Positions 57,609 through 62,818 of a stretch of DNA of 64,000 nt are shown in pieces; the first letter of the stretch is position 1; every line of letters starts with the position of its first letter. Made by a program: the position numbers and the translations under genes. Below the pieces are notes generated by a model. That model did not search any database. It saw nothing but the letters and a program-made list of their open reading frames with translations, and was not told where the DNA came from. The stretch lies in sequence record KJ190158; one strand, given 5' to 3'. This stretch comes from Escherichia phage FFH2.

Positions 57609-59165
57609 TTAATTTTCCATGTTGGATATGGAATTATCTCTGGTTGATGACATCTTAGAAGTGCCGTTACCAGTGGATCCTGCAGCCATTCCATCACCAG
57701 CCCTACTGATGTCTTGGCCCAAGAGCTTCATCAGCTCTTCCTGATCCATGTCCTCGTCAAATCTTTCATCAAACCCGCCTACTTCAAGAATCTTATTAAT
57801 TACTGCAGGAGTTTTTGGCAAGTAACCTACAGCACCGATCCTCTGGACAAACTTGGAGAAGCTCTCCATGTCCACTTCTTCAATCAGACCAGGTTTCAGT
57901 TTAGGCATATCATCATCTTCAAGGATGATACCATTCAATGCCAGAAGCTGTGGAATAAGATCTTTATTGAAGGCCTCAGTGATAATATCTATATCACGCT
58001 GAACAAAATGACCATGGATAGACTGTTTTGACTCAGACAGGGAGAAGGATCCAACGTTATCGTTACCGAGGTTAATAAAGCCAGCACCGAAACGGTCAAG
58101 AATCGCCTTCTTACGGGCATCAATCAAATCTTTAGTGGAATACTGCTTACCCATACCGTCAACCCCCTTCAGGGTCATGGAGTAAAGCTCTTTACCAGAC
58201 TTATCTCTATCAGACGGAAGTATAAAGAAACTTTGCTCACCACTATGGGCGTTTGCTGCGTCAAGCATAAGGTCTGCAACCATTCTCCCTTCCATTGAAT
58301 TCGGGTCAATGCTGGCCTTGTTCAAAATATTGGAAGGAATTTTCAGCTCAAGCACACCACCAAGGTCTTTGGAACAGCCAACAACCTCAAGGTTTTCAAT
58401 CAGAACTTTCTCACGGAAAGATCTGTAGCAACCTATCATAGGTGACACACCTGCAGGGTTAGATTCTGTTCCTGACAGGGTCATGAGCATAAGCTTTTTA
58501 GCAGGGATGAAAATTTCAGGCTCATTAAATCCTTTTGAAGGCATTGCAGCAAGAGGTCCAGCCCAGCGTGCATTCTGAGTGTTTAGAAATGCATTAGGTG
58601 ACTGATAAATACCTGTCAGTGTTCTACTATTCTTGTCAAAGACAAACGGCTCTGATCTGGACAGACTGGCCTGAGGTCGGAATGCAATTTTATCAATAAG
58701 AAGCATCCCGGCATATTTACCTTCTTTCTCTCTGCGGTATACTTTCTCAAACAGTGAAAAACCATACTCGTTAAAGGTAGCTGCGCTTCTTGCAATATCC
58801 CGAAGGGTTTGTTGGTTTGCCAAATTACGCAAAGAATACTCTATAAGCTCGGCAGCTTTCTTAGAGTCTTCACTTTTAACATTATAAAGGATCTTAAAAT
58901 CATTGAATGCTTTCGTGATGAAAACATATTTTGTATCTAAGGCAGTAGCAACTGTGGAATCACATTTCATAGTCTCCACTGTGGCAATCAGCTGAGGCCA
59001 ACGCAATTCCTCAACCATCATAGATTGCGATTCTGCCATAATTTGGGAAAGTGCGCCAGAACCGATCTCACTCATACGAACATTATGAGTTGGTGCGCCT
59101 GCGTTCCCAGATTTATTCACAGTTTTGGCTGTGGCGTTGTGTTTCCTGCGGTTCTTTTTGGACAC
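57609..59165 (-). CDS. Portal protein (518 aa), GTG start
   Basis: Directly downstream of large terminase; GAGGGG RBS 8 nt upstream of GTG. Confidence 0.7.
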   Translation of the reverse strand: MSKKNRRKHNATAKTVNKSGNAGAPTHNVRMSEIGSGALSQIMAESQSMMVEELRWPQLIATVETMKCDSTVATALDTKYVFITKAFNDFKILYNVKSEDSKKAAELIEYSLRNLANQQTLRDIARSAATFNEYGFSLFEKVYRREKEGKYAGMLLIDKIAFRPQASLSRSEPFVFDKNSRTLTGIYQSPNAFLNTQNARWAGPLAAMPSKGFNEPEIFIPAKKLMLMTLSGTESNPAGVSPMIGCYRSFREKVLIENLEVVGCSKDLGGVLELKIPSNILNKASIDPNSMEGRMVADLMLDAANAHSGEQSFFILPSDRDKSGKELYSMTLKGVDGMGKQYSTKDLIDARKKAILDRFGAGFINLGNDNVGSFSLSESKQSIHGHFVQRDIDIITEAFNKDLIPQLLALNGIILEDDDMPKLKPGLIEEVDMESFSKFVQRIGAVGYLPKTPAVINKILEVGGFDERFDEDMDQEELMKLLGQDISRAGDGMAAGSTGNGTSKMSSTRDNSISNMEN

Positions 59166-59176
59166 AAGCTTTACCC

Positions 59177-59218
59177 CTCAAAACAGTATAACAAAATAGC
59201 CCTCGTGTTAGAGGGCTA
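59177..59218 (-). terminator. Hairpin AGCCCUC-N6-GAGGGCU with U-rich tail, in portal leader
   Basis: Downstream of candidate promoter 59236-59264 and upstream of portal RBS. Confidence 0.45.
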
Positions 59219-59235
59219 GTATCTCCGATTACTCT

Positions 59236-59264
59236 ATTCTACCACATCTAATTAAGATTGGCAA
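59236..59264 (-). promoter_or_regulatory. Sigma70-like promoter (-35 TTGCCA, 17-nt spacer, -10 TAGAAT) upstream of portal
   Basis: Lies between terminase stop and hairpin 59197-59218. Confidence 0.4.
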
Positions 59265-59267
59265 CAC

Positions 59268-60815
59268 TTAGATAAAACGCTTGAACATAGAAGGTGATGA
59301 GATTGATGGAATCACACAAGGAAGTGCTACCTCCTCTTTCTCCAGGAAATTAATCGCAGAAGCTACACAGTCTGCCCAGTCGTCTTTTCTGTTAAATGTT
59401 GATCTTTCCCCGTTGAATTTTTCAAGTTCAGTCAGAAATGCTTCCAGAGTATCAGGATGGAAACTGGATTTTACAATCCTCACCATTCCTTGTTGTGCAA
59501 GATTGGCAAAAGGTGAGAACCTTGTCAGTTTAGATTTGTTGGAAGGCATTGGGTCTTCTTCAACCCTGAACCCTTCGGCGAGCAAGGATCTGGATGAGGT
59601 TAAGAACTCACTCTTACCTGCCTGACCAGGGTCCACAGAGAATACGATTATGCAATCATCACCATCAAACTGCGCCTGTTTCCTGATGATCACATCTCGT
59701 TCACCAGCCTTTTTACAGAACTTGCCTTCCAGACCTGTGGAATACCTCCCGTCATCCACGTTCTCAGGACAATAATCACCGGACAGGTAATAAAAGCCGT
59801 CGCTATCTTTACTTACCTTAATACTGGCGGTAAAGTCAGGAAATTTATTACCGGAAGTTCTCTCGGTTCCTGCCTTATCCCATGCCCTGCAAGATACTGA
59901 TCCAAGGGGTACTCTATCGGCATCACGAAGGAAAGATCTTTGAAAATAGTTTGCACCCTCAGGCTTTGCAAACCAGTTACCATGAAGAAGCTGAGCTTTT
60001 TCCAGTTCCGGCAGACCTTCAAGGAAAGCAAGGTATTCTGGGTTGTCTCTTAAGCAGACAGGATTATCGAATATTGTTGCGCCTATAAACGAGAATGACA
60101 ACGGTCTTGGCTTGATCTCCACACCCAGTCCGTTAACCGTGGTGTATTTCTCTATCAACTCTTCTTTAGAGTCTCCCCATATAAATTCACCGTCGCGTCG
60201 GATAAAATATCTTTTCTTACCGCATTTCTCCGGATCTGGATACCCTTCATCGTCCAACCACCATCTAACCAGTTTGGCAAGCATGTGTTCTGAATCGGGG
60301 TTACAGCTGATAACCATTCTTGATGGATACTTTGACTGAGATCGCAGACGAGACATCAGATAGTCTATCTGCTCCCATTCGAACTGCGTGCCCTCATCGA
60401 AGCAAACCATGGTGTACTCAAGCCCCTGATGGTTAAGCTTATCTTGTACATACTCCATGTGGCAGTATTTTACAACAGCTCCCTTTTTGCTTCTATCCCA
60501 CTTGCCAGTGCTCGGATCAAACCGTGGAAAAATGAACTTATGATCCTTCTCTCTAAACTTTGGCTTAATGTTTTCAGGCAGATCACTATAAATAGCTACT
60601 GCTTTAGGCCATAGTCCACCCTCACCTTCCAACTGCGGGGTTGTTCTTCGGAACATAACCACAGAGCTGTGGGGGTCATCAATAATTTTAAGCGGCATCA
60701 ACTGCAAGAGGAACGACTTGCCAGACCCTGCGGCACCGCCGATTACCAAAATATCTGCATCGTTTTCTAGGATCATCTTCTGCTTTTCAGAACACGGTCC
60801 GTAAATCTTAGACAT
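59268..60815 (-). CDS. Terminase large subunit (515 aa)
   Basis: Walker A VIGGAAGSGKS and Walker B-like MVCFDEGTQ in N-terminal ATPase half; Asp-rich C-terminal nuclease-like half. Confidence 0.85.
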   Translation of the reverse strand: MSKIYGPCSEKQKMILENDADILVIGGAAGSGKSFLLQLMPLKIIDDPHSSVVMFRRTTPQLEGEGGLWPKAVAIYSDLPENIKPKFREKDHKFIFPRFDPSTGKWDRSKKGAVVKYCHMEYVQDKLNHQGLEYTMVCFDEGTQFEWEQIDYLMSRLRSQSKYPSRMVISCNPDSEHMLAKLVRWWLDDEGYPDPEKCGKKRYFIRRDGEFIWGDSKEELIEKYTTVNGLGVEIKPRPLSFSFIGATIFDNPVCLRDNPEYLAFLEGLPELEKAQLLHGNWFAKPEGANYFQRSFLRDADRVPLGSVSCRAWDKAGTERTSGNKFPDFTASIKVSKDSDGFYYLSGDYCPENVDDGRYSTGLEGKFCKKAGERDVIIRKQAQFDGDDCIIVFSVDPGQAGKSEFLTSSRSLLAEGFRVEEDPMPSNKSKLTRFSPFANLAQQGMVRIVKSSFHPDTLEAFLTELEKFNGERSTFNRKDDWADCVASAINFLEKEEVALPCVIPSISSPSMFKRFI

Positions 60816-61102
60816 TAACCTCTCTCCTTTGGAAACAGTGTTCTAATATAGTCTTGCAAAATGATCAATTTAGCTCTATCATTGCTACAAGACAGATTAT
60901 TATCCCTCATAATGCCAGAATTCACCGCATCTGGCGCACCCTTCTTTAAAGGTATAGCTTTAGCAGGTGGTTTCATGGCACCTTCCGGGGGTTTAACAAT
61001 CAACCTTCCTACATCTGGAGGGTCAATCTTGTATTCTCTCTCAACGCTGGTTGCACACCCACACAATAACAAGCACACAATAAACAGTGCAGCAACTCTC
61101 AT
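60815..61102 (-). CDS. Outer-membrane spanin (o-spanin, Rz1-like)
   Basis: Lipoprotein-type signal with Cys cluster (FIVCLLLCGCATS), Pro-rich mature region; immediately follows i-spanin with 4-nt overlap. Confidence 0.5.
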   Translation of the reverse strand: MRVAALFIVCLLLCGCATSVEREYKIDPPDVGRLIVKPPEGAMKPPAKAIPLKKGAPDAVNSGIMRDNNLSCSNDRAKLIILQDYIRTLFPKERG

Positions 61103-61872: not shown

Positions 61873-61918
61873 TTTAAAGGTTCCTTTTGTTTGTATATGT
61901 TTAAAGTATAACTGAAAG

Positions 61919-61995
61919 TGGTCTCCACGGAGTGATTCGAACACTCGACCTCCTGATCCCAAATCAGGCGCTCTACCAAGCTGAGCTACGCGGAG
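61919..61995 (-). tRNA. tRNA-Pro (anticodon UGG)
   Basis: Hand-folded cloverleaf: acceptor CTCCGCG/CGTGGAG (C1-G72), anticodon stem CCTGA/TCAGG, loop TTTGGGA, T-loop TTCGAAT, encoded CCA. Confidence 0.75.
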
Positions 61996-62006
61996 TATTT
62001 ACTATT

Positions 62007-62081
62007 TGGTGGCCCTGGGTGGAATTGAACCACCGTCTGGCGATTATGAGTCGCTTGCTTGAACCTTCCAGCTACAGGGCC
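62007..62081 (-). tRNA. tRNA-Met (anticodon CAU; elongator or Ile-lysidine type)
   Basis: Acceptor GGCCCTG/CAGGGCC, anticodon loop CTCATAA, T-arm GGTGG TTCAATT CCACC, encoded CCA. Confidence 0.7.
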
Positions 62082-62082
62082 T

Positions 62083-62158
62083 TGGTGCTGATGGCAGGAC
62101 TTGAACCTACAACCTATTGATTACAAATCAATTGCACTACCGATTGTGCTACATCAGC
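62083..62158 (-). tRNA. tRNA-Thr (anticodon UGU)
   Basis: Acceptor GCTGATG/CATCAGC, D-stem GCAC/GTGC, anticodon loop TTTGTAA, T-loop TTCAAGT, encoded CCA. Confidence 0.75.
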
Positions 62159-62163
62159 AAAAA

Positions 62164-62262
62164 GGTGCTAGGTGATGGAATCGAACCACCTATGTATTCA
62201 ACGACTACCTCGTCTATTTTCAGGATTAAAAATCCTCGCCCTTGCCAAAGGGCTTACCTAGC
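62164..62262 (-). tRNA. Atypical 99-nt tRNA-like gene (anticodon loop UUUUUAA, possibly Lys-UUU) with ~31-nt insertion
   Basis: Perfect 7-bp acceptor pairing GCTAGGT/ACCTAGC, D-arm GCCC/GGGC, T-arm GGTGG TTCGATT CCATC, but only 4-bp anticodon stem, long extra arm, CCA not encoded. Confidence 0.4.
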
Positions 62263-62360
62263 TCAGTATGTTGACCATGTTGCTAGTCGGCGATGACGAC
62301 TGTAACATTTGATAATCCGGTTCTGCTTCCGGCTTTCGCTTAATTACAAGGTCAACAATG

Positions 62361-62451
62361 TGGCGGAGAGTAATGGAATCGAACCATCATCGAGTCATCC
62401 TCAACGGGACGGTTTTCAAGACCGCTTGAGCACCATTGCTCCCTACCCTCC
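62361..62451 (-). tRNA. tRNA-Ser (anticodon UGA), class II
   Basis: 91 nt; acceptor GGAGGGT/ACTCTCC, anticodon stem GCGGT/ACCGT, loop CTTGAAA, long variable arm, encoded CCA. Confidence 0.7.
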
Positions 62452-62458
62452 TTTATAA

Positions 62459-62487
62459 ATTATACTGATAATGACACTGATTTTCGA
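62459..62487 (-). promoter_or_regulatory. Possible internal tRNA promoter (-10 TATAAT, weak -35 TCGAAA)
   Basis: Perfect -10 placing +1 at the 5' end of tRNA-Ser; -35 is weak. Confidence 0.3.
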
Positions 62488-62565
62488 GCAGTTAGTGACT
62501 AGTATAAACGACGATAAATATCAATGCCATTATCTGTATTATTTATGCATCTAAAAATATAAATT

Positions 62566-62652
62566 TGGTGGGGAGTGGTGGAGTCGAACCACCCGAGTCG
62601 CAATGACAATAGATTTACAGTCTACACCGCTACCTCTACGGGATAACTCCCC
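62566..62652 (-). tRNA. tRNA-Tyr (anticodon GUA), class II
   Basis: 87 nt; acceptor GGGGAGT/ACTCCCC, anticodon loop CTGTAAA, T-arm GGTGG TTCGACT CCACC, encoded CCA. Confidence 0.7.
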
Positions 62653-62656
62653 AATT

Positions 62657-62731
62657 TGGCACCCCGTACTGGACTCGAACCAGTGTCAACGGCTTAGAAG
62701 GCCGCTGCTTTATCCACTAAGCTAACAGGGC
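62657..62731 (-). tRNA. tRNA-Arg (anticodon UCU)
   Basis: 75 nt; acceptor GCCCTGT/ACGGGGT, D-stem GCTT/AAGC, anticodon loop CTTCTAA, encoded CCA. Confidence 0.7.
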
Positions 62732-62789
62732 ACTGGGTGGCTTTCTTTTACACCTTAGCCGCCAGAAAAGGTGGGAGACCATGTTTACA

Positions 62790-62818
62790 ATATTACACTG
62801 TTAAGCAAAGTTTGTCAA
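62790..62818 (-). promoter_or_regulatory. Sigma70-like promoter for tRNA cluster (-35 TTGACA, 17-nt spacer, -10 TAATAT)
   Basis: About 50 nt upstream of tRNA-Arg 5' end. Confidence 0.5.

What the first reader, a model, noticed from the sequence alone, without database searches (positions are those of the whole stretch)
62164..62262. Atypical 99-nt tRNA-like gene inside the tRNA cluster
Between tRNA-Thr and tRNA-Ser is an element with a perfect 7-bp acceptor stem, a normal D-arm and T-arm, but only a 4-bp anticodon stem, loop UUUUUAA, a ~31-nt extra arm with its own 5-bp stem, and no encoded CCA. Too long for class II tRNAs and too short for a group I intron. It may be an unusual tRNA, a pseudo-tRNA or a regulatory RNA.
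Basis: seen in the sequence. Interest (0 to 1): 0.45.

Follow-up and report, generated by a model that had tools for sequence, protein, structure and literature searches.

The report
Conserved oversized tRNA-like RNA in phages
The odd 99-base "tRNA" in phage rV5's tRNA cluster is a real gene from a conserved, apparently undescribed family of tRNA-shaped RNAs in large enterobacterial phages, which in most relatives cannot read codons normally and so probably imitates a tRNA rather than serving as one.

Summary
The window is Escherichia phage rV5. The element (62164-62262, minus strand) is as described. ARAGORN calls it tRNA-??? at the same ends, and the Rfam tRNA model scores 35.5 bits (threshold 29) only by skipping a 26-nt insertion.

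It is neither a one-off nor a decaying gene. About 190 phage records carry one copy, in Vequintavirinae, Stephanstirmvirinae and one N4-like podophage.
- Across 31 distinct variants every stem pair is kept: 98.9% of cells pair, 13 of 22 pairs show double changes, 0 of 500 shuffles match.
- The tertiary 19:56 pair covaries (G:C to U:A).
- A family model scores members 79-116 bits and ordinary tRNAs at most 33.5.

Shared features:
- a 7/5 acceptor/T domain;
- a D arm that can form 6 bp with a 4-nt loop, as in tRNA-Sec;
- a 31-41-nt variable region with a hairpin;
- usually an encoded U73-CCA.

The "anticodon" loop changes in sequence and length between lineages. The lineage with a 6-nt loop still shows compensatory changes, so the selected function does not need canonical decoding.

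rV5's own loop, UUUUUAA with A73, resembles E. coli tRNA-Lys. Function is unknown. My leading idea is a tRNA mimic or decoy (about 0.4). The main rival is a nuclease-resistant spare tRNA-Lys (about 0.22). Annotations disagree: Lys, OTHER, TERM, ??? or nothing.

The parts
62164..62262 (-). Whole tRNA-like RNA gene (99 nt; 5' end at 62262). It belongs to the conserved phage family defined here.
   Evidence: ARAGORN tRNA-???. Rfam tRNA 35.5 bits. Family model R1 100.8 bits. Fold z-score -3.66.
62256..62262 (-). Acceptor stem, 5' strand (GCUAGGU). It pairs with 62167-62173.
   Evidence: 7 of 7 pairs are kept in 31 of 31 variants. 5 of the 7 pairs show double changes.
62238..62253 (-). D arm, GCCC-UUUGGCAA-GGGC. 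It can be drawn as 4 bp + 8-nt loop, or as 6 bp + 4-nt loop (UGGC) like tRNA-Sec. The GG of the loop is the 18/19 equivalent.
   Evidence: 3 of 4 stem pairs covary. The UU..AA is invariant. Loop G19 covaries with T-loop C56 (G:C in 21 variants, U:A in 10). The MFE fold draws 6 bp.
62222..62236 (-). 'Anticodon' arm, AGGAU-UUUUA-AUCCU. Read as 4 bp + 7 nt the loop is UUUUUAA, which gives the UUU triplet.
   Evidence: Stem pairs 1, 4 and 5 covary across the family. The loop sequence and length differ between lineages. The loop matches the E. coli lysT loop CUUUUAA at 6 of 7 positions.
62191..62221 (-). Oversized variable region (31 nt): A-rich 5' linker GAAAAUA, hairpin GACGA-GGUAG-UCGUU (62200-62214), and 3' linker GAAUACAUA.
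   Evidence: A hairpin is present in every variant, and the region is 31-41 nt long. The stem covaries, e.g. rV5 GACGA/UCGUU against Av-05 GACGG/CCGUU.
62174..62190 (-). T arm, GGUGG-UUCGAUU-CCAUC.
   Evidence: 5 of 5 pairs are kept in all variants. Pair 3 covaries (U-A to C-G). Justusliebigvirus members have UAUGG/CCAUA.
62167..62173 (-). Acceptor stem, 3' strand (ACCUAGC).
62159..62166 (-). 3' end: discriminator A73 (62166), CC (62164-62165), then a U5 spacer (62159-62163) directly before tRNA-Thr. The terminal A of CCA is not encoded.
   Evidence: Sequence. 23 of 31 family variants encode U73-CCA instead. The terminator-like call here is only a consensus match.
62083..62158 (-). tRNA-Thr(UGU), immediately downstream. 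Its 5' processing would define the element's 3' trailer.
   Evidence: ARAGORN. Rfam 76.8 bits.
62361..62451 (-). tRNA-Ser(UGA), upstream, separated from the element by a 98-nt spacer.
   Evidence: ARAGORN.
62790..62818 (-). Sigma-70-like promoter upstream of tRNA-Arg. It is the likely start of the polycistronic tRNA transcript that includes the element.
   Evidence: Consensus scan, TTGACA-17-TAATAT. Annotated as P(tRNA) in DQ832317. Expression was not tested.

Best explanation
The element is a functional gene for a non-canonical, tRNA-shaped RNA.

Biogenesis (inferred). It is transcribed as part of the phage tRNA operon. Like its tRNA neighbours, it is presumably released by RNase P at its 5' end and trimmed at its 3' end. 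In rV5 the host CCA-adding enzyme would complete ACC to ACCA.

Fold (supported by covariation). It adopts a tRNA-like L shape with a 7-bp acceptor stem and a 5-bp T stem. The D and T loops are locked by the 18/19-55/56 contacts. The D arm resembles that of tRNA-Sec. A very long variable region carries its own hairpin.

Why not a normal decoder. The family keeps this scaffold under selection while the 'anticodon' loop changes in both sequence and length. In the large Seunavirus/Mydovirus/Certrevirus lineage the loop has only 6 nt. The selected function is therefore most likely not ordinary codon reading.

Most likely mechanism (inferred, not shown). The RNA acts as a tRNA mimic. It occupies a tRNA-binding protein, such as a host tRNA-targeting defence nuclease or toxin, or a synthetase or modification enzyme. 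The anticodon-arm and variable-arm loops would be the lineage-specific recognition surfaces. In rV5 the loop UUUUUAA plus discriminator A73 make the RNA a look-alike of E. coli tRNA-Lys(UUU), the tRNA attacked by PrrC and PARIS.
For: SHOWN
- Same boundaries from ARAGORN, Rfam and thermodynamic folding.
- One copy per genome in about 127-193 phage records: Vequintavirus, Avunavirus, Seunavirus, Mydovirus, Henunavirus, Cronobacter, Raoultella, Proteus and Enterobacter phages, Justusliebigvirus, and one Schitoviridae podophage. It also occurs in metagenome contigs.
- Covariation over the whole family: 98.9% of cells paired, 13 of 22 pairs with double changes, 0 of 500 shuffles as good. Slid controls pair only 30-45%.
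- The tertiary 19:56 pair switches from G:C to U:A in 10 of 31 variants.
- The family model scores members at 79-116 bits and all ordinary tRNAs in 434 kb of sequence at 33.5 bits or less.
- Loops differ: AUCAA, CAUCCA, CCUCAA, CCUCCA, CAGCCA, CUUCCA, UUUUA, UUAUA.
- Within the 6-nt-loop lineage alone, 8 of 21 pairs show compensatory changes and no cell is unpaired. All of its variants end in UCCA except the unverified GE_vB_MG record.
- Variable-arm hairpins have conserved loops (GAACUAACAGUA; UUUUAGG) on covarying stems.
- The podophage shares only the ~110-nt element with the myophages, so it moves as a discrete module.
- The rV5 loop matches the lysT loop at 6 of 7 positions, and both have A73.

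CONTEXT
- A Vequintavirus encodes RNA ligase, polynucleotide kinase and a phosphoesterase about 4 kb from the tRNA cluster. This resembles the T4 tRNA-repair kit.
- PrrC recognition of tRNA-Lys involves the anticodon loop and A73 (PMC3014915).
- PARIS AriB recognises the tRNA-Lys anticodon stem-loop (PMC11464382).
Against: - There is no expression, processing, aminoacylation or binding data for any member. The decoy mechanism is inference only.
- rV5's own loop is a perfectly canonical 7-nt anticodon loop if the stem is taken as 4 bp (U33, UUU, A37). Together with A73 this equally fits a working tRNA-Lys.
- In lineage B the position closing the loop alternates between C.A and U-A. That is typical of positions 32/38 in real anticodon loops.
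- The loop [C/U]AUCAAA is conserved across distant lineages. It looks like a UGA-reading loop except for A33.
- Natural deletion variants exist (V18, O157 typing phage 4), so the RNA is dispensable in culture.
- The conserved A-rich linkers were partly imposed by my search patterns. BLAST-derived members show the same motifs with small deviations.
Confidence: 0.4

Rival explanations
1. It is a working, structurally eccentric tRNA. In rV5 it would be a tRNA-Lys(UUU) with a 4-bp anticodon stem and a giant variable arm, charged by host LysRS. It would serve as a spare that host anticodon nucleases (PrrC, PARIS AriB) cannot recognise, as shown for T5 tRNA-Lys. Other lineages would read other codons: UAU in Av-05, and UCA (UGA suppression) in Erwinia and phi92-like phages.
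For: - The 7-nt reading UUUUUAA has U33, UUU and A37. A73 is present. It matches the lysT loop at 6 of 7 positions.
- BASEL records annotate it as tRNA-Lys. Hena1 annotates its homologue as tRNA-sup(tca).
- The Rfam tRNA score is above the gathering threshold.
- The anticodon stem sequence differs completely from that of lysT. AriB needs that stem and cuts between positions 40 and 41 (PMC11464382).
- tRNAs with 4-bp anticodon stems, tRNA-Sec-like tRNAs and allo-tRNAs can all function in translation (PMC13092985; PMC7609411).
- In lineage B the 32/38-like position alternates between C.A and U-A.
Against: - Orthologues do not keep an anticodon. The largest lineage has a 6-nt loop closed by a C-G pair, yet its scaffold is still under selection.
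- Lineage B has A33 where tRNAs have a nearly universal U33.
- Most relatives fall below the Rfam tRNA and tRNA-Sec thresholds, or are not hit at all.
- A8/U14/U15 replace the universal U8/A14/R15.
- The 7- and 9-nt unpaired linkers around the variable hairpin are unlike those of class II tRNAs.
- Lys AAA is not a rare codon in E. coli (from memory), so the usual codon-supply rationale does not apply.
- Phages of lineage B show no clear avoidance of TGA stops: 5 of 33 ORFs against 16 of 75. The numbers are small and the test is inconclusive.
Confidence: 0.22
2. It is an aminoacylated carrier that is deliberately kept off the ribosome. It would donate an amino acid to a non-ribosomal acceptor, like the non-proteinogenic tRNA-Gly species used for cell-wall synthesis.
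For: - Most members encode a U73-CCA end (23 of 31).
- G1:C72, C2:G71 and U73 match three of the acceptor-end identity elements of E. coli tRNA-Gly (identity set quoted from memory).
- Many 6-nt loops contain UCC or GCC followed by A. Compare the glyT loop CUUCCAA with its U73.
- The non-canonical core could lower use by EF-Tu or the ribosome.
Against: - No aminoacyl-transferase partner was identified in the annotated Vequintavirus genome.
- Lineages A and B lack the CC of the Gly anticodon.
- The discriminator differs in rV5 (A73).
- The idea is purely inferential.
Confidence: 0.1
3. It is a processing or stability module. A tRNA-shaped fold placed in the polycistronic tRNA transcript would provide RNase P and 3'-end processing sites, or protect neighbouring tRNAs, with no function in trans.
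For: - In most phages it starts 2-3 nt after the CCA of the preceding tRNA.
- In rV5 it ends 5 nt before tRNA-Thr.
- It always sits inside tRNA clusters.
Against: - Any ordinary tRNA would serve that purpose.
- It does not explain the conserved loop sequences on covarying stems, the encoded CCA, the maintained D/T tertiary pair, or transfer as a stand-alone module into a podophage.
Confidence: 0.08
4. It is a decaying tRNA pseudogene, for example a former class II or Sec-like tRNA, with no current function.
For: - Annotation is inconsistent.
- It is dispensable in V18 and in O157 typing phage 4.
- rV5 has lost the full CCA.
Against: - All 21 stem pairs are kept in 31 variants, with many compensatory changes. 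The only non-standard cells are at the loop-closing fifth anticodon-stem pair.
- The tertiary pair covaries.
- Within rV5-like variants there are 0 unpaired cells.
Confidence: 0.04

Closest known systems
Canonical elongator tRNA (Rfam RF00005), in particular E. coli tRNA-Lys(UUU)
   Same: - Cloverleaf with a 7-bp acceptor stem, a 5-bp T stem, the UUCGAUU T loop and a GG in the D loop.
- The rV5 copy passes the Rfam tRNA threshold.
- The rV5 loop UUUUUAA and A73 resemble lysT (CUUUUAA, A73).
   Different: - A 31-41-nt variable region.
- A8/U14/U15 instead of U8/A14/R15.
- An anticodon stem of 4 bp plus a G.G, or 5 bp with a 5-6-nt loop.
- The anticodon is not conserved among orthologues.
- Relatives fall below the Rfam threshold.
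tRNA-Sec and tRNA-Sec-like tRNAs (selC* tRNA-Cys, allo-tRNAs)
   Same: - A long extra arm.
- A D arm that can form 6 bp + a 4-nt loop (UGGC, against the Rfam consensus UGGU).
- The most widespread loop, [C/U]AUCAAA, differs from the tRNA-Sec consensus CUUCAAA only at position 33.
- As in allo-tRNAs, the scaffold is conserved while the 'anticodon' varies (PMC7609411).
   Different: - The acceptor/T domain is 7/5, not 8/5, 9/4, 8/4 or 9/3.
- The discriminator is U or A, not G.
- The anticodon stem is not 6 bp.
- Rfam tRNA-Sec scores are 27-37.6, against a gathering score of 47.
- It is carried by phages, not cells.
Phage T4 RNAC and RNAD (species 1 and 2 RNAs)
   Same: - Stable small RNAs encoded inside a phage tRNA cluster.
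- Partly tRNA-like (RNAC has a T arm).
- Function still unknown (PMC3014915, PMC9697503).
   Different: - No detectable homology: the family model does not hit them.
- T4 RNAC and RNAD are 139 and 119 nt and are not full cloverleaves.
Phage-encoded nuclease-resistant tRNAs (T5 tRNA-Lys against PARIS; T5 tRNA-Tyr against retron Eco7)
   Same: - Phage tRNA-cluster genes whose anticodon arm differs from the host tRNA targeted by an immune nuclease (PMC11464382).
- The rV5 element has a Lys-type loop on a different stem.
   Different: - Those are canonical, demonstrably decoding tRNAs.
- This family has a non-canonical core, and most members lack a canonical loop.

Membership tests
Canonical tRNA (RF00005) | Score at or above the Rfam gathering threshold (29 bits) | tested here: met
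   The rV5 copy scores 35.5 bits. Homologues in other genera do not reach it. Their best clan hit is tRNA-Sec at 27-37.6 bits (gathering score 47), and Klebsiella phage copies have no hit at E <= 0.1.
Canonical tRNA (RF00005) | 5-bp anticodon stem with a 7-nt loop (U33, purine 37), and an anticodon conserved among orthologues | tested here: not met
   rV5 is either 4 bp + 7 nt or 5 bp + 5 nt. Across the family the loops are 5, 6 or 7 nt with different triplets (UUU, UAU, UCA with A33, UCC, GCC).
Canonical tRNA (RF00005) | Conserved core nucleotides U8, A14, R15-Y48; variable region of 4-5 nt (class I) or about 10-24 nt (class II) | tested here: not met
   A8, U14, U15 and A48 are invariant in 31 variants. 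The variable region is 31-41 nt, with 7- and 9-nt unpaired linkers.
Canonical tRNA (RF00005) | L-shape tertiary contacts between the D and T loops (G18-psi55, G19-C56) | tested here: met
   The GG is conserved. Position 19:56 covaries, G:C in 21 variants and U:A in 10.
Canonical tRNA (RF00005) | Aminoacylation and use on the ribosome | not testable with these tools
   Needs acid-gel or periodate assays and ribosome or EF-Tu association experiments.
tRNA-Sec (RF01852) | 13-bp acceptor/T domain (8/5 in bacteria) | tested here: not met
   7 + 5 pairs in all variants.
tRNA-Sec (RF01852) | 6-bp D stem with a 4-nt D loop | tested here: inconclusive
   The sequence allows it (GCCCUU-UGGC-AAGGGC) and the MFE fold draws it. 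The two extra pairs (UU/AA) are invariant, so covariation cannot confirm them.
tRNA-Sec (RF01852) | UCA anticodon, G73, and a score at or above the gathering threshold (47 bits) | tested here: not met
   rV5 has UUU and A73. Lineage B has UCA but with A33 and U73. Scores are 27-37.6 bits.
allo-tRNA | 8/4 or 9/3 acceptor/T domain | tested here: not met
   The domain is 7/5. The definition is taken from PMC7609411.
tmRNA | tRNA-like domain plus a tag reading frame; G3:U70 | tested here: not met
   ARAGORN reports no tmRNA. Pair 3:70 is U-A, C-G or A-U.
T4 RNAC / RNAD | Sequence or structure homology to T4 rnaC or rnaD | tested here: not met
   In the T4 locus L058, family model R1 hits only tRNA-Thr and tRNA-Leu, not rnaC or rnaD. 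What is shared is the location in a tRNA cluster.
New family defined here (Vequintavirinae-type tRNA-like RNA) | 7/5 cloverleaf with A8, UUUG[G/U]YAA D loop, G26/G44, a 5-bp AC stem with a short loop, a 31-41-nt variable region (GAAAA... hairpin ...AAUAC) and a UU[C/A]GAYU T loop; at least 79 bits with model R1 | tested here: met
   Window 62163-62262 scores 100.8 bits. The next-best non-member scores 33.5 bits or less.

The most novel reading that the evidence does not exclude
The family is a portable, tRNA-shaped 'bait' scaffold. Its anticodon-arm and variable-arm loops are swapped between phage lineages to imitate whichever host tRNA the local immune nucleases or tRNA-modifying toxins attack. 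The rV5 version would imitate tRNA-Lys, the target of PrrC and PARIS. This would be an RNA-based anti-defence factor that works by substrate mimicry rather than by replacing the lost tRNA.
Probability: 0.2. Interest if true: 0.8.

Novelty: new variant of a known kind. Interest (0 to 1): 0.55.

Why it matters
Phage tRNA clusters are now seen as counter-measures against tRNA-targeting bacterial immunity. The cases studied so far are ordinary tRNAs.

This RNA is different in several ways:
- It is conserved and under structural selection.
- It moves horizontally between phage families.
- It keeps a tRNA shape and usually a CCA end, but has given up a canonical anticodon loop.
- It sits in well-studied coliphage groups (rV5, PVP-SE1, phi92-like, BASEL collection) that are used for therapy and for defence-system screens.

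It is annotated inconsistently: as tRNA-Lys, 'OTHER', a suppressor, '???' or not at all. That distorts tRNA counts and codon-usage analyses.

If it proves to be a mimic or decoy, it would be a new class of RNA anti-defence factor. If it decodes, it would extend the known structural limits of functional bacterial tRNAs. Either way it deserves its own RNA family model.

Tried and rejected
- Rfam at a permissive E-value, on the window and on five homologous loci. Only tRNA and tRNA-Sec clan hits overlap the element. No other curated family does.
- T4 rnaC/rnaD homology. I fetched and folded both. There is no similarity and no hit with the family model.
- E. coli genomes. No blastn match to the PVP-SE1 copy even at E <= 10.
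- GTDB genome scan with the conserved 3' pattern. Only chance matches in Patescibacteria and other genomes, which are not family members.
- IMG/VR pattern scans. They returned only 12-13 contigs, mostly isolates already known.
- UGA-suppressor test by stop-codon usage in loci of the UCA-loop lineage. TGA was 5 of 33 against 16 of 75, which is inconclusive.
- Literature searches. The queries were Vequintavirinae + tRNA-like; phage tRNA-like decoy; non-canonical phage tRNA; Hena1/suppressor; and tRNA cluster ncRNA anti-defence. None described this RNA. The library lacks most subscription papers, so an older description cannot be excluded.
- A conserved protein partner next to the element. The only shared flank between the podophage and a metagenome contig is a coiled-coil ORF downstream of the tRNA cluster. 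I judged this to be synteny, not linkage.
- Group I intron, attP site and tmRNA readings were rejected on size, on the lytic lifestyle of these phages, and on ARAGORN and Rfam results.
- The GE_vB_MG copy (loop CAUCA, tail UCAA). Its differences from PVP-SE1 are C-run deletions in an UNVERIFIED record, so I treated them as probable sequencing errors.
Full report
WHAT THE WINDOW IS. The region 61900-62760 is 100% identical to Escherichia phage rV5 (DQ832317 / NC_011041; genus Vequintavirus). On the minus strand ARAGORN finds a tRNA cluster: Pro(UGG) 61919-61995, Met/Ile2(CAU) 62007-62081, Thr(UGU) 62083-62158, 'tRNA-??? (atcc)' 62164-62262, Ser(UGA) 62361-62451, Tyr(GUA) 62566-62652 and Arg(UCU) 62657-62731. 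The rV5 record does not annotate the element. Close relatives name it in conflicting ways: tRNA-Lys (AAA), tRNA-OTHER 'Asp|Gly', tRNA-TERM 'Stop(tta)', tRNA-???(atcc), or nothing.

The RNA reads as follows:
- acceptor 5' strand GCUAGGU, then AA;
- D arm GCCC-UUUGGCAA-GGGC, then G;
- 'anticodon' arm AGGAU-UUUUA-AUCCU;
- variable region GAAAAUA-GACGA-GGUAG-UCGUU-GAAUACAUA;
- T arm GGUGG-UUCGAUU-CCAUC;
- acceptor 3' strand ACCUAGC, then A-CC, followed by U5 and tRNA-Thr.

The Rfam tRNA model matches at 35.5 bits (threshold 29), treating 26 nt of the variable region as an insertion and deleting one anticodon-stem position. The MFE fold is the cloverleaf plus an extra hairpin, with z = -3.66. The anticodon arm can be drawn as 4 bp + UUUUUAA, as 5 bp + UUUUA, or as 6 bp + UUU. 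The D arm is atypical. ACC is encoded, but the final A of CCA is not.

IT IS A CONSERVED FAMILY. BLAST with the rV5 copy finds 127 phage records, 118 of them at 95% identity or more. More distant copies occur in Av-05 (Avunavirus) and in the Seunavirus GE_vB_MG. Iterating with these copies finds 180-193 records. They cover:
- Salmonella phages (PVP-SE1, SSE121), E. coli phages (4MG, LNA4), and Klebsiella phages (Mydovirus: KB57, KPP-1);
- Cronobacter, Erwinia (Henunavirus: Hena1), Raoultella, Proteus, Enterobacter and Pectobacterium phages;
- the phi92-like Justusliebigvirus group of Stephanstirmvirinae (PHB05, PaulScherrer, Serratia KKP_3264);
- one N4-like podophage, Salmonella phage UTK0002 (Schitoviridae, Ithacavirus), where the gene is unannotated.

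The podophage shares only the ~110-nt element with the myophage loci and none of the flanks. The element therefore behaves as a discrete transferable gene. Pattern scans added metagenome contigs. They found nothing credible in bacterial genomes.

A covariance model built from 31 distinct variants scores family members at 93-116 bits, and 79-80 bits for Justusliebigvirus. Every ordinary tRNA in 434 kb of held sequence scores 33.5 bits or less. There is one copy per locus. T4 rnaC and rnaD are not hit.

THE STRUCTURE IS UNDER SELECTION. I parsed the 31 distinct variants by segment.
- All 7 acceptor pairs, all 4 D pairs, all 5 T pairs and four of the five anticodon-stem pairs are standard pairs in 31 of 31 variants.
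- The fifth anticodon-stem pair is C-G in 13 variants, U-A in 9, C.A in 8 and G.A in 1.
- On an ungapped core alignment of 21 distinct sequences, 98.9% of cells pair. 13 of 22 pairs have changes on both sides, amounting to 71 such cells against 20 in shuffles. 0 of 500 shuffles reach the observed values. Sliding the partner strand drops pairing to 30-45%.
- The D-loop/T-loop tertiary pair covaries. UUUGGCAA goes with UUCGAUU, and UUUGUCAA goes with UUAGAUU. That is G19:C56 changing to U19:A56 in 10 of 31 variants. This is direct evidence for a tRNA-like L shape.
- The variable region is 31-41 nt and always contains a hairpin.
- Within hairpin types the stems covary. Examples are rV5 GACGA/UCGUU against Av-05 GACGG/CCGUU, and GUC/GAC against GCCA/UGGC against AGCG/CGCU around a conserved GAACUAACAGUA loop. 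A second type keeps a UUUUAGG loop on different stems.
- Nearly identical cores carry different hairpin types (for example KB57 and KPP-1). This suggests that the variable arm is exchanged as a module.

WHAT MAKES IT NON-CANONICAL.
- A8, U14, U15, A48 and G26/G44 are invariant. tRNAs normally have U8, A14 and R15-Y48.
- U14-U15 can pair with A20a-A21, giving a 6-bp D stem with a 4-nt loop. That is the signature D arm of tRNA-Sec (PMC7609411). The Rfam tRNA-Sec consensus visible has the arm cgcccc-UGGU-ggggcg. These two pairs never vary, so covariation cannot confirm them.
- Most members encode U73-CCA (23 of 31). The rV5 lineage has A73-CC-U, and Av-05 has U-AC-A.
- The 'anticodon' loop falls into three lineages.
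  - Lineage B: [C/U]-AUCAA-A. It occurs in Erwinia phages, phi92-like phages, the podophage and several metagenome types. Read as 7 nt it is C/U32-A33-UCA-A37-A38. That differs from the tRNA-Sec consensus CUUCAAA only at position 33.
  - Lineage C: a C-G-closed 6-nt loop (CAUCCA, CCUCAA, CCUCCA, CAGCCA or CUUCCA). It occurs in Salmonella, Klebsiella and Cronobacter phages and in 4MG-like E. coli phages.
  - Lineage A: U-UUUUA-A in rV5 and U-UUAUA-A in Av-05.

WHY I FAVOUR A NON-DECODING ROLE. The 6-nt-loop lineage cannot present a canonical anticodon. Within that lineage alone, however, 8 of 21 pairs show compensatory double changes and no cell is unpaired. All of its variants end in UCCA except the unverified GE_vB_MG record. 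Whatever selection preserves the scaffold there does not need a 7-nt anticodon loop. By parsimony the same function applies to the family as a whole. The conserved A33 of lineage B points the same way. Conserved loop sequences on covarying stems, in both the anticodon-like arm and the variable arm, are what one expects of recognition surfaces for a protein or RNA partner.

THE rV5 COPY SPECIFICALLY. Read as 4 bp + 7 nt, its loop UUUUUAA has U33, UUU and A37. It matches the E. coli lysT loop CUUUUAA at 6 of 7 positions, within GA-loop-UC in both. Both RNAs have A73. A73 is a major LysRS identity element and contributes to PrrC recognition, which otherwise centres on the anticodon loop (PMC3014915). 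PARIS AriB recognises the tRNA-Lys anticodon stem-loop and cuts between positions 40 and 41. T5 escapes with a tRNA-Lys whose stem is altered (PMC11464382). A BASEL Vequintavirus encodes RNA ligase, polynucleotide kinase and a phosphoesterase about 4 kb from the tRNA cluster. This resembles the T4 tRNA-repair kit (my knowledge) and suggests that these phages meet anticodon nucleases. So the rV5 RNA is either a tRNA-Lys look-alike used as bait, or a nuclease-resistant spare tRNA-Lys. The sequence cannot decide between the two. I give the mimic reading about 0.4 and the decoder reading about 0.22.

For lineage C I note from memory of tRNA identity rules that U73, G1:C72 and C2:G71, plus UCC or GCC followed by A in the loop, recall tRNA-Gly. 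The glyT sequence was checked. This is a lead only.

OTHER RIVALS.
- A non-ribosomal aminoacyl carrier (about 0.1). No partner enzyme was seen in the annotated genome.
- A processing or stability module for the polycistronic transcript (about 0.08). The element abuts neighbouring tRNAs by 2-5 nt, but this does not explain the conserved loops, the CCA end or the tertiary pair.
- A decaying pseudogene (about 0.04). This is contradicted by the covariation.

The RNA is dispensable in culture. V18 carries a deletion that fuses the 5' half of tRNA-Tyr to the 3' half of the element. O157 typing phage 4 retains only the 3' end. A stop-codon usage check for UGA suppression in lineage B loci was inconclusive.

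EXPRESSION AND PROCESSING ARE INFERRED, NOT SHOWN. A sigma-70-like promoter lies upstream of tRNA-Arg at 62818-62790. It is annotated as P(tRNA) in the rV5 record. A weaker promoter-like site precedes tRNA-Ser. None lies directly before the element. Release by RNase P and 3' trimming, and completion of ACC to ACCA by the host CCA-adding enzyme, are assumed by analogy with T4 tRNA precursors that lack an encoded CCA (my knowledge).

COMPARISON WITH KNOWN FAMILIES. The element works like, and is related to, tRNA. It fails several defining features of a canonical tRNA: the anticodon loop, the core nucleotides and the variable-region size. It also fails defining features of tRNA-Sec (8/5 domain, G73, Rfam threshold) and of allo-tRNAs (8/4 or 9/3 domain). 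The nearest functional analogues are T4 RNAC and RNAD. These are tRNA-cluster small RNAs of still unknown role (PMC3014915, PMC9697503), and they are not homologous to this family. I found no paper describing this RNA. The searchable library is incomplete.

VERDICT. This is a real, conserved and structurally unusual phage tRNA-like RNA family, so far mis-annotated or unannotated and of unknown function. I class it as a new variant of a known kind (non-canonical tRNA / tRNA-like RNA). Interest is moderate to high, because it is directly testable in tractable coliphages and may bear on tRNA-targeting immunity.

Noticed in passing
window 62007-62081 (-): The tRNA with anticodon CAU is annotated as tRNA-Met in rV5, Murica and JLBYU08, but as tRNA-Ile (AUA) in the BASEL records. 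The second reading assumes lysidine modification. Its identity is unresolved.
   Followed up: no
window about 57970-60815 (-) (rV5 record 58027-60872): The rV5 large terminase gene is annotated as a join of three pieces (ORF64ABC). In phage AlexBoehm it is a single 1.5-kb CDS. rV5 therefore seems to carry two insertions (introns, inteins or homing elements) in the terminase gene.
   Followed up: no
phage records MG065635-MG065690 (hits H3-H6, H44-H48 and others): About 18 records named 'Campylobacter phage' (host C. jejuni) are 99-100% identical to rV5 over the tRNA cluster and are rV5-sized. They look like E. coli Vequintaviruses that were mis-attributed or co-isolated.
   Followed up: no
L067 29167-31175 (AlexBoehm bas56_0209-0211); in rV5 just beyond the window's right end: RNA ligase, polynucleotide kinase and a phosphoesterase lie about 4 kb from the tRNA cluster, resembling the T4 tRNA-repair set. 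A 'ribosome hibernation factor' gene (bas56_0150) is also annotated in this phage.
   Followed up: partly
L007 752-843 (phage V18); H99 (O157 typing phage 4): Natural deletions. In V18 the 5' half of tRNA-Tyr is fused to the 3' half of the element, which removes tRNA-Ser and the element's 5' part. Typing phage 4 keeps only the element's 3' end.
   Followed up: partly
window 62263-62360 (-): The 98-nt spacer between tRNA-Ser and the element contains two small hairpins (CCGGAAGCAGAACCGG and GUCGUCAUCGCCGAC). Its 3' ~38 nt, seen in the extracted flanks, are conserved among rV5-like phages. Its function is unknown.
   Followed up: no
L013 964-1042 and L014 991-1069 (Klebsiella phages KB57, KPP-1): Weak, unannotated tRNA-model hits (34.9 bits) lie between annotated tRNAs. 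They may be further non-canonical tRNAs in these clusters.
   Followed up: no
L005 / MG969411 (Salmonella phage GE_vB_MG, UNVERIFIED, 172 kb): The record holds two copies of the element region. Its copy differs from PVP-SE1 by single-C deletions in C runs (in the loop and in CCA), which suggests assembly duplication and homopolymer errors.
   Followed up: partly
window 62009-62081 (+) and the antisense strands of other tRNAs: The Rfam 'Plastid-ycf2 5'UTR' model matches the reverse complement of several phage tRNAs at 21-41 bits (gathering score 65.7). This is an artefact of that model resembling an antisense tRNA.
   Followed up: no
L030 8139-8747 (+) and L070 2698-3114 (+): A ~200-aa coiled-coil ORF lies just downstream of the element in a 147-kb metagenome contig. 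It has a 69%-identical DNA match downstream of the tRNA cluster of podophage UTK0002. This is probably synteny with lysis or late genes.
   Followed up: partly
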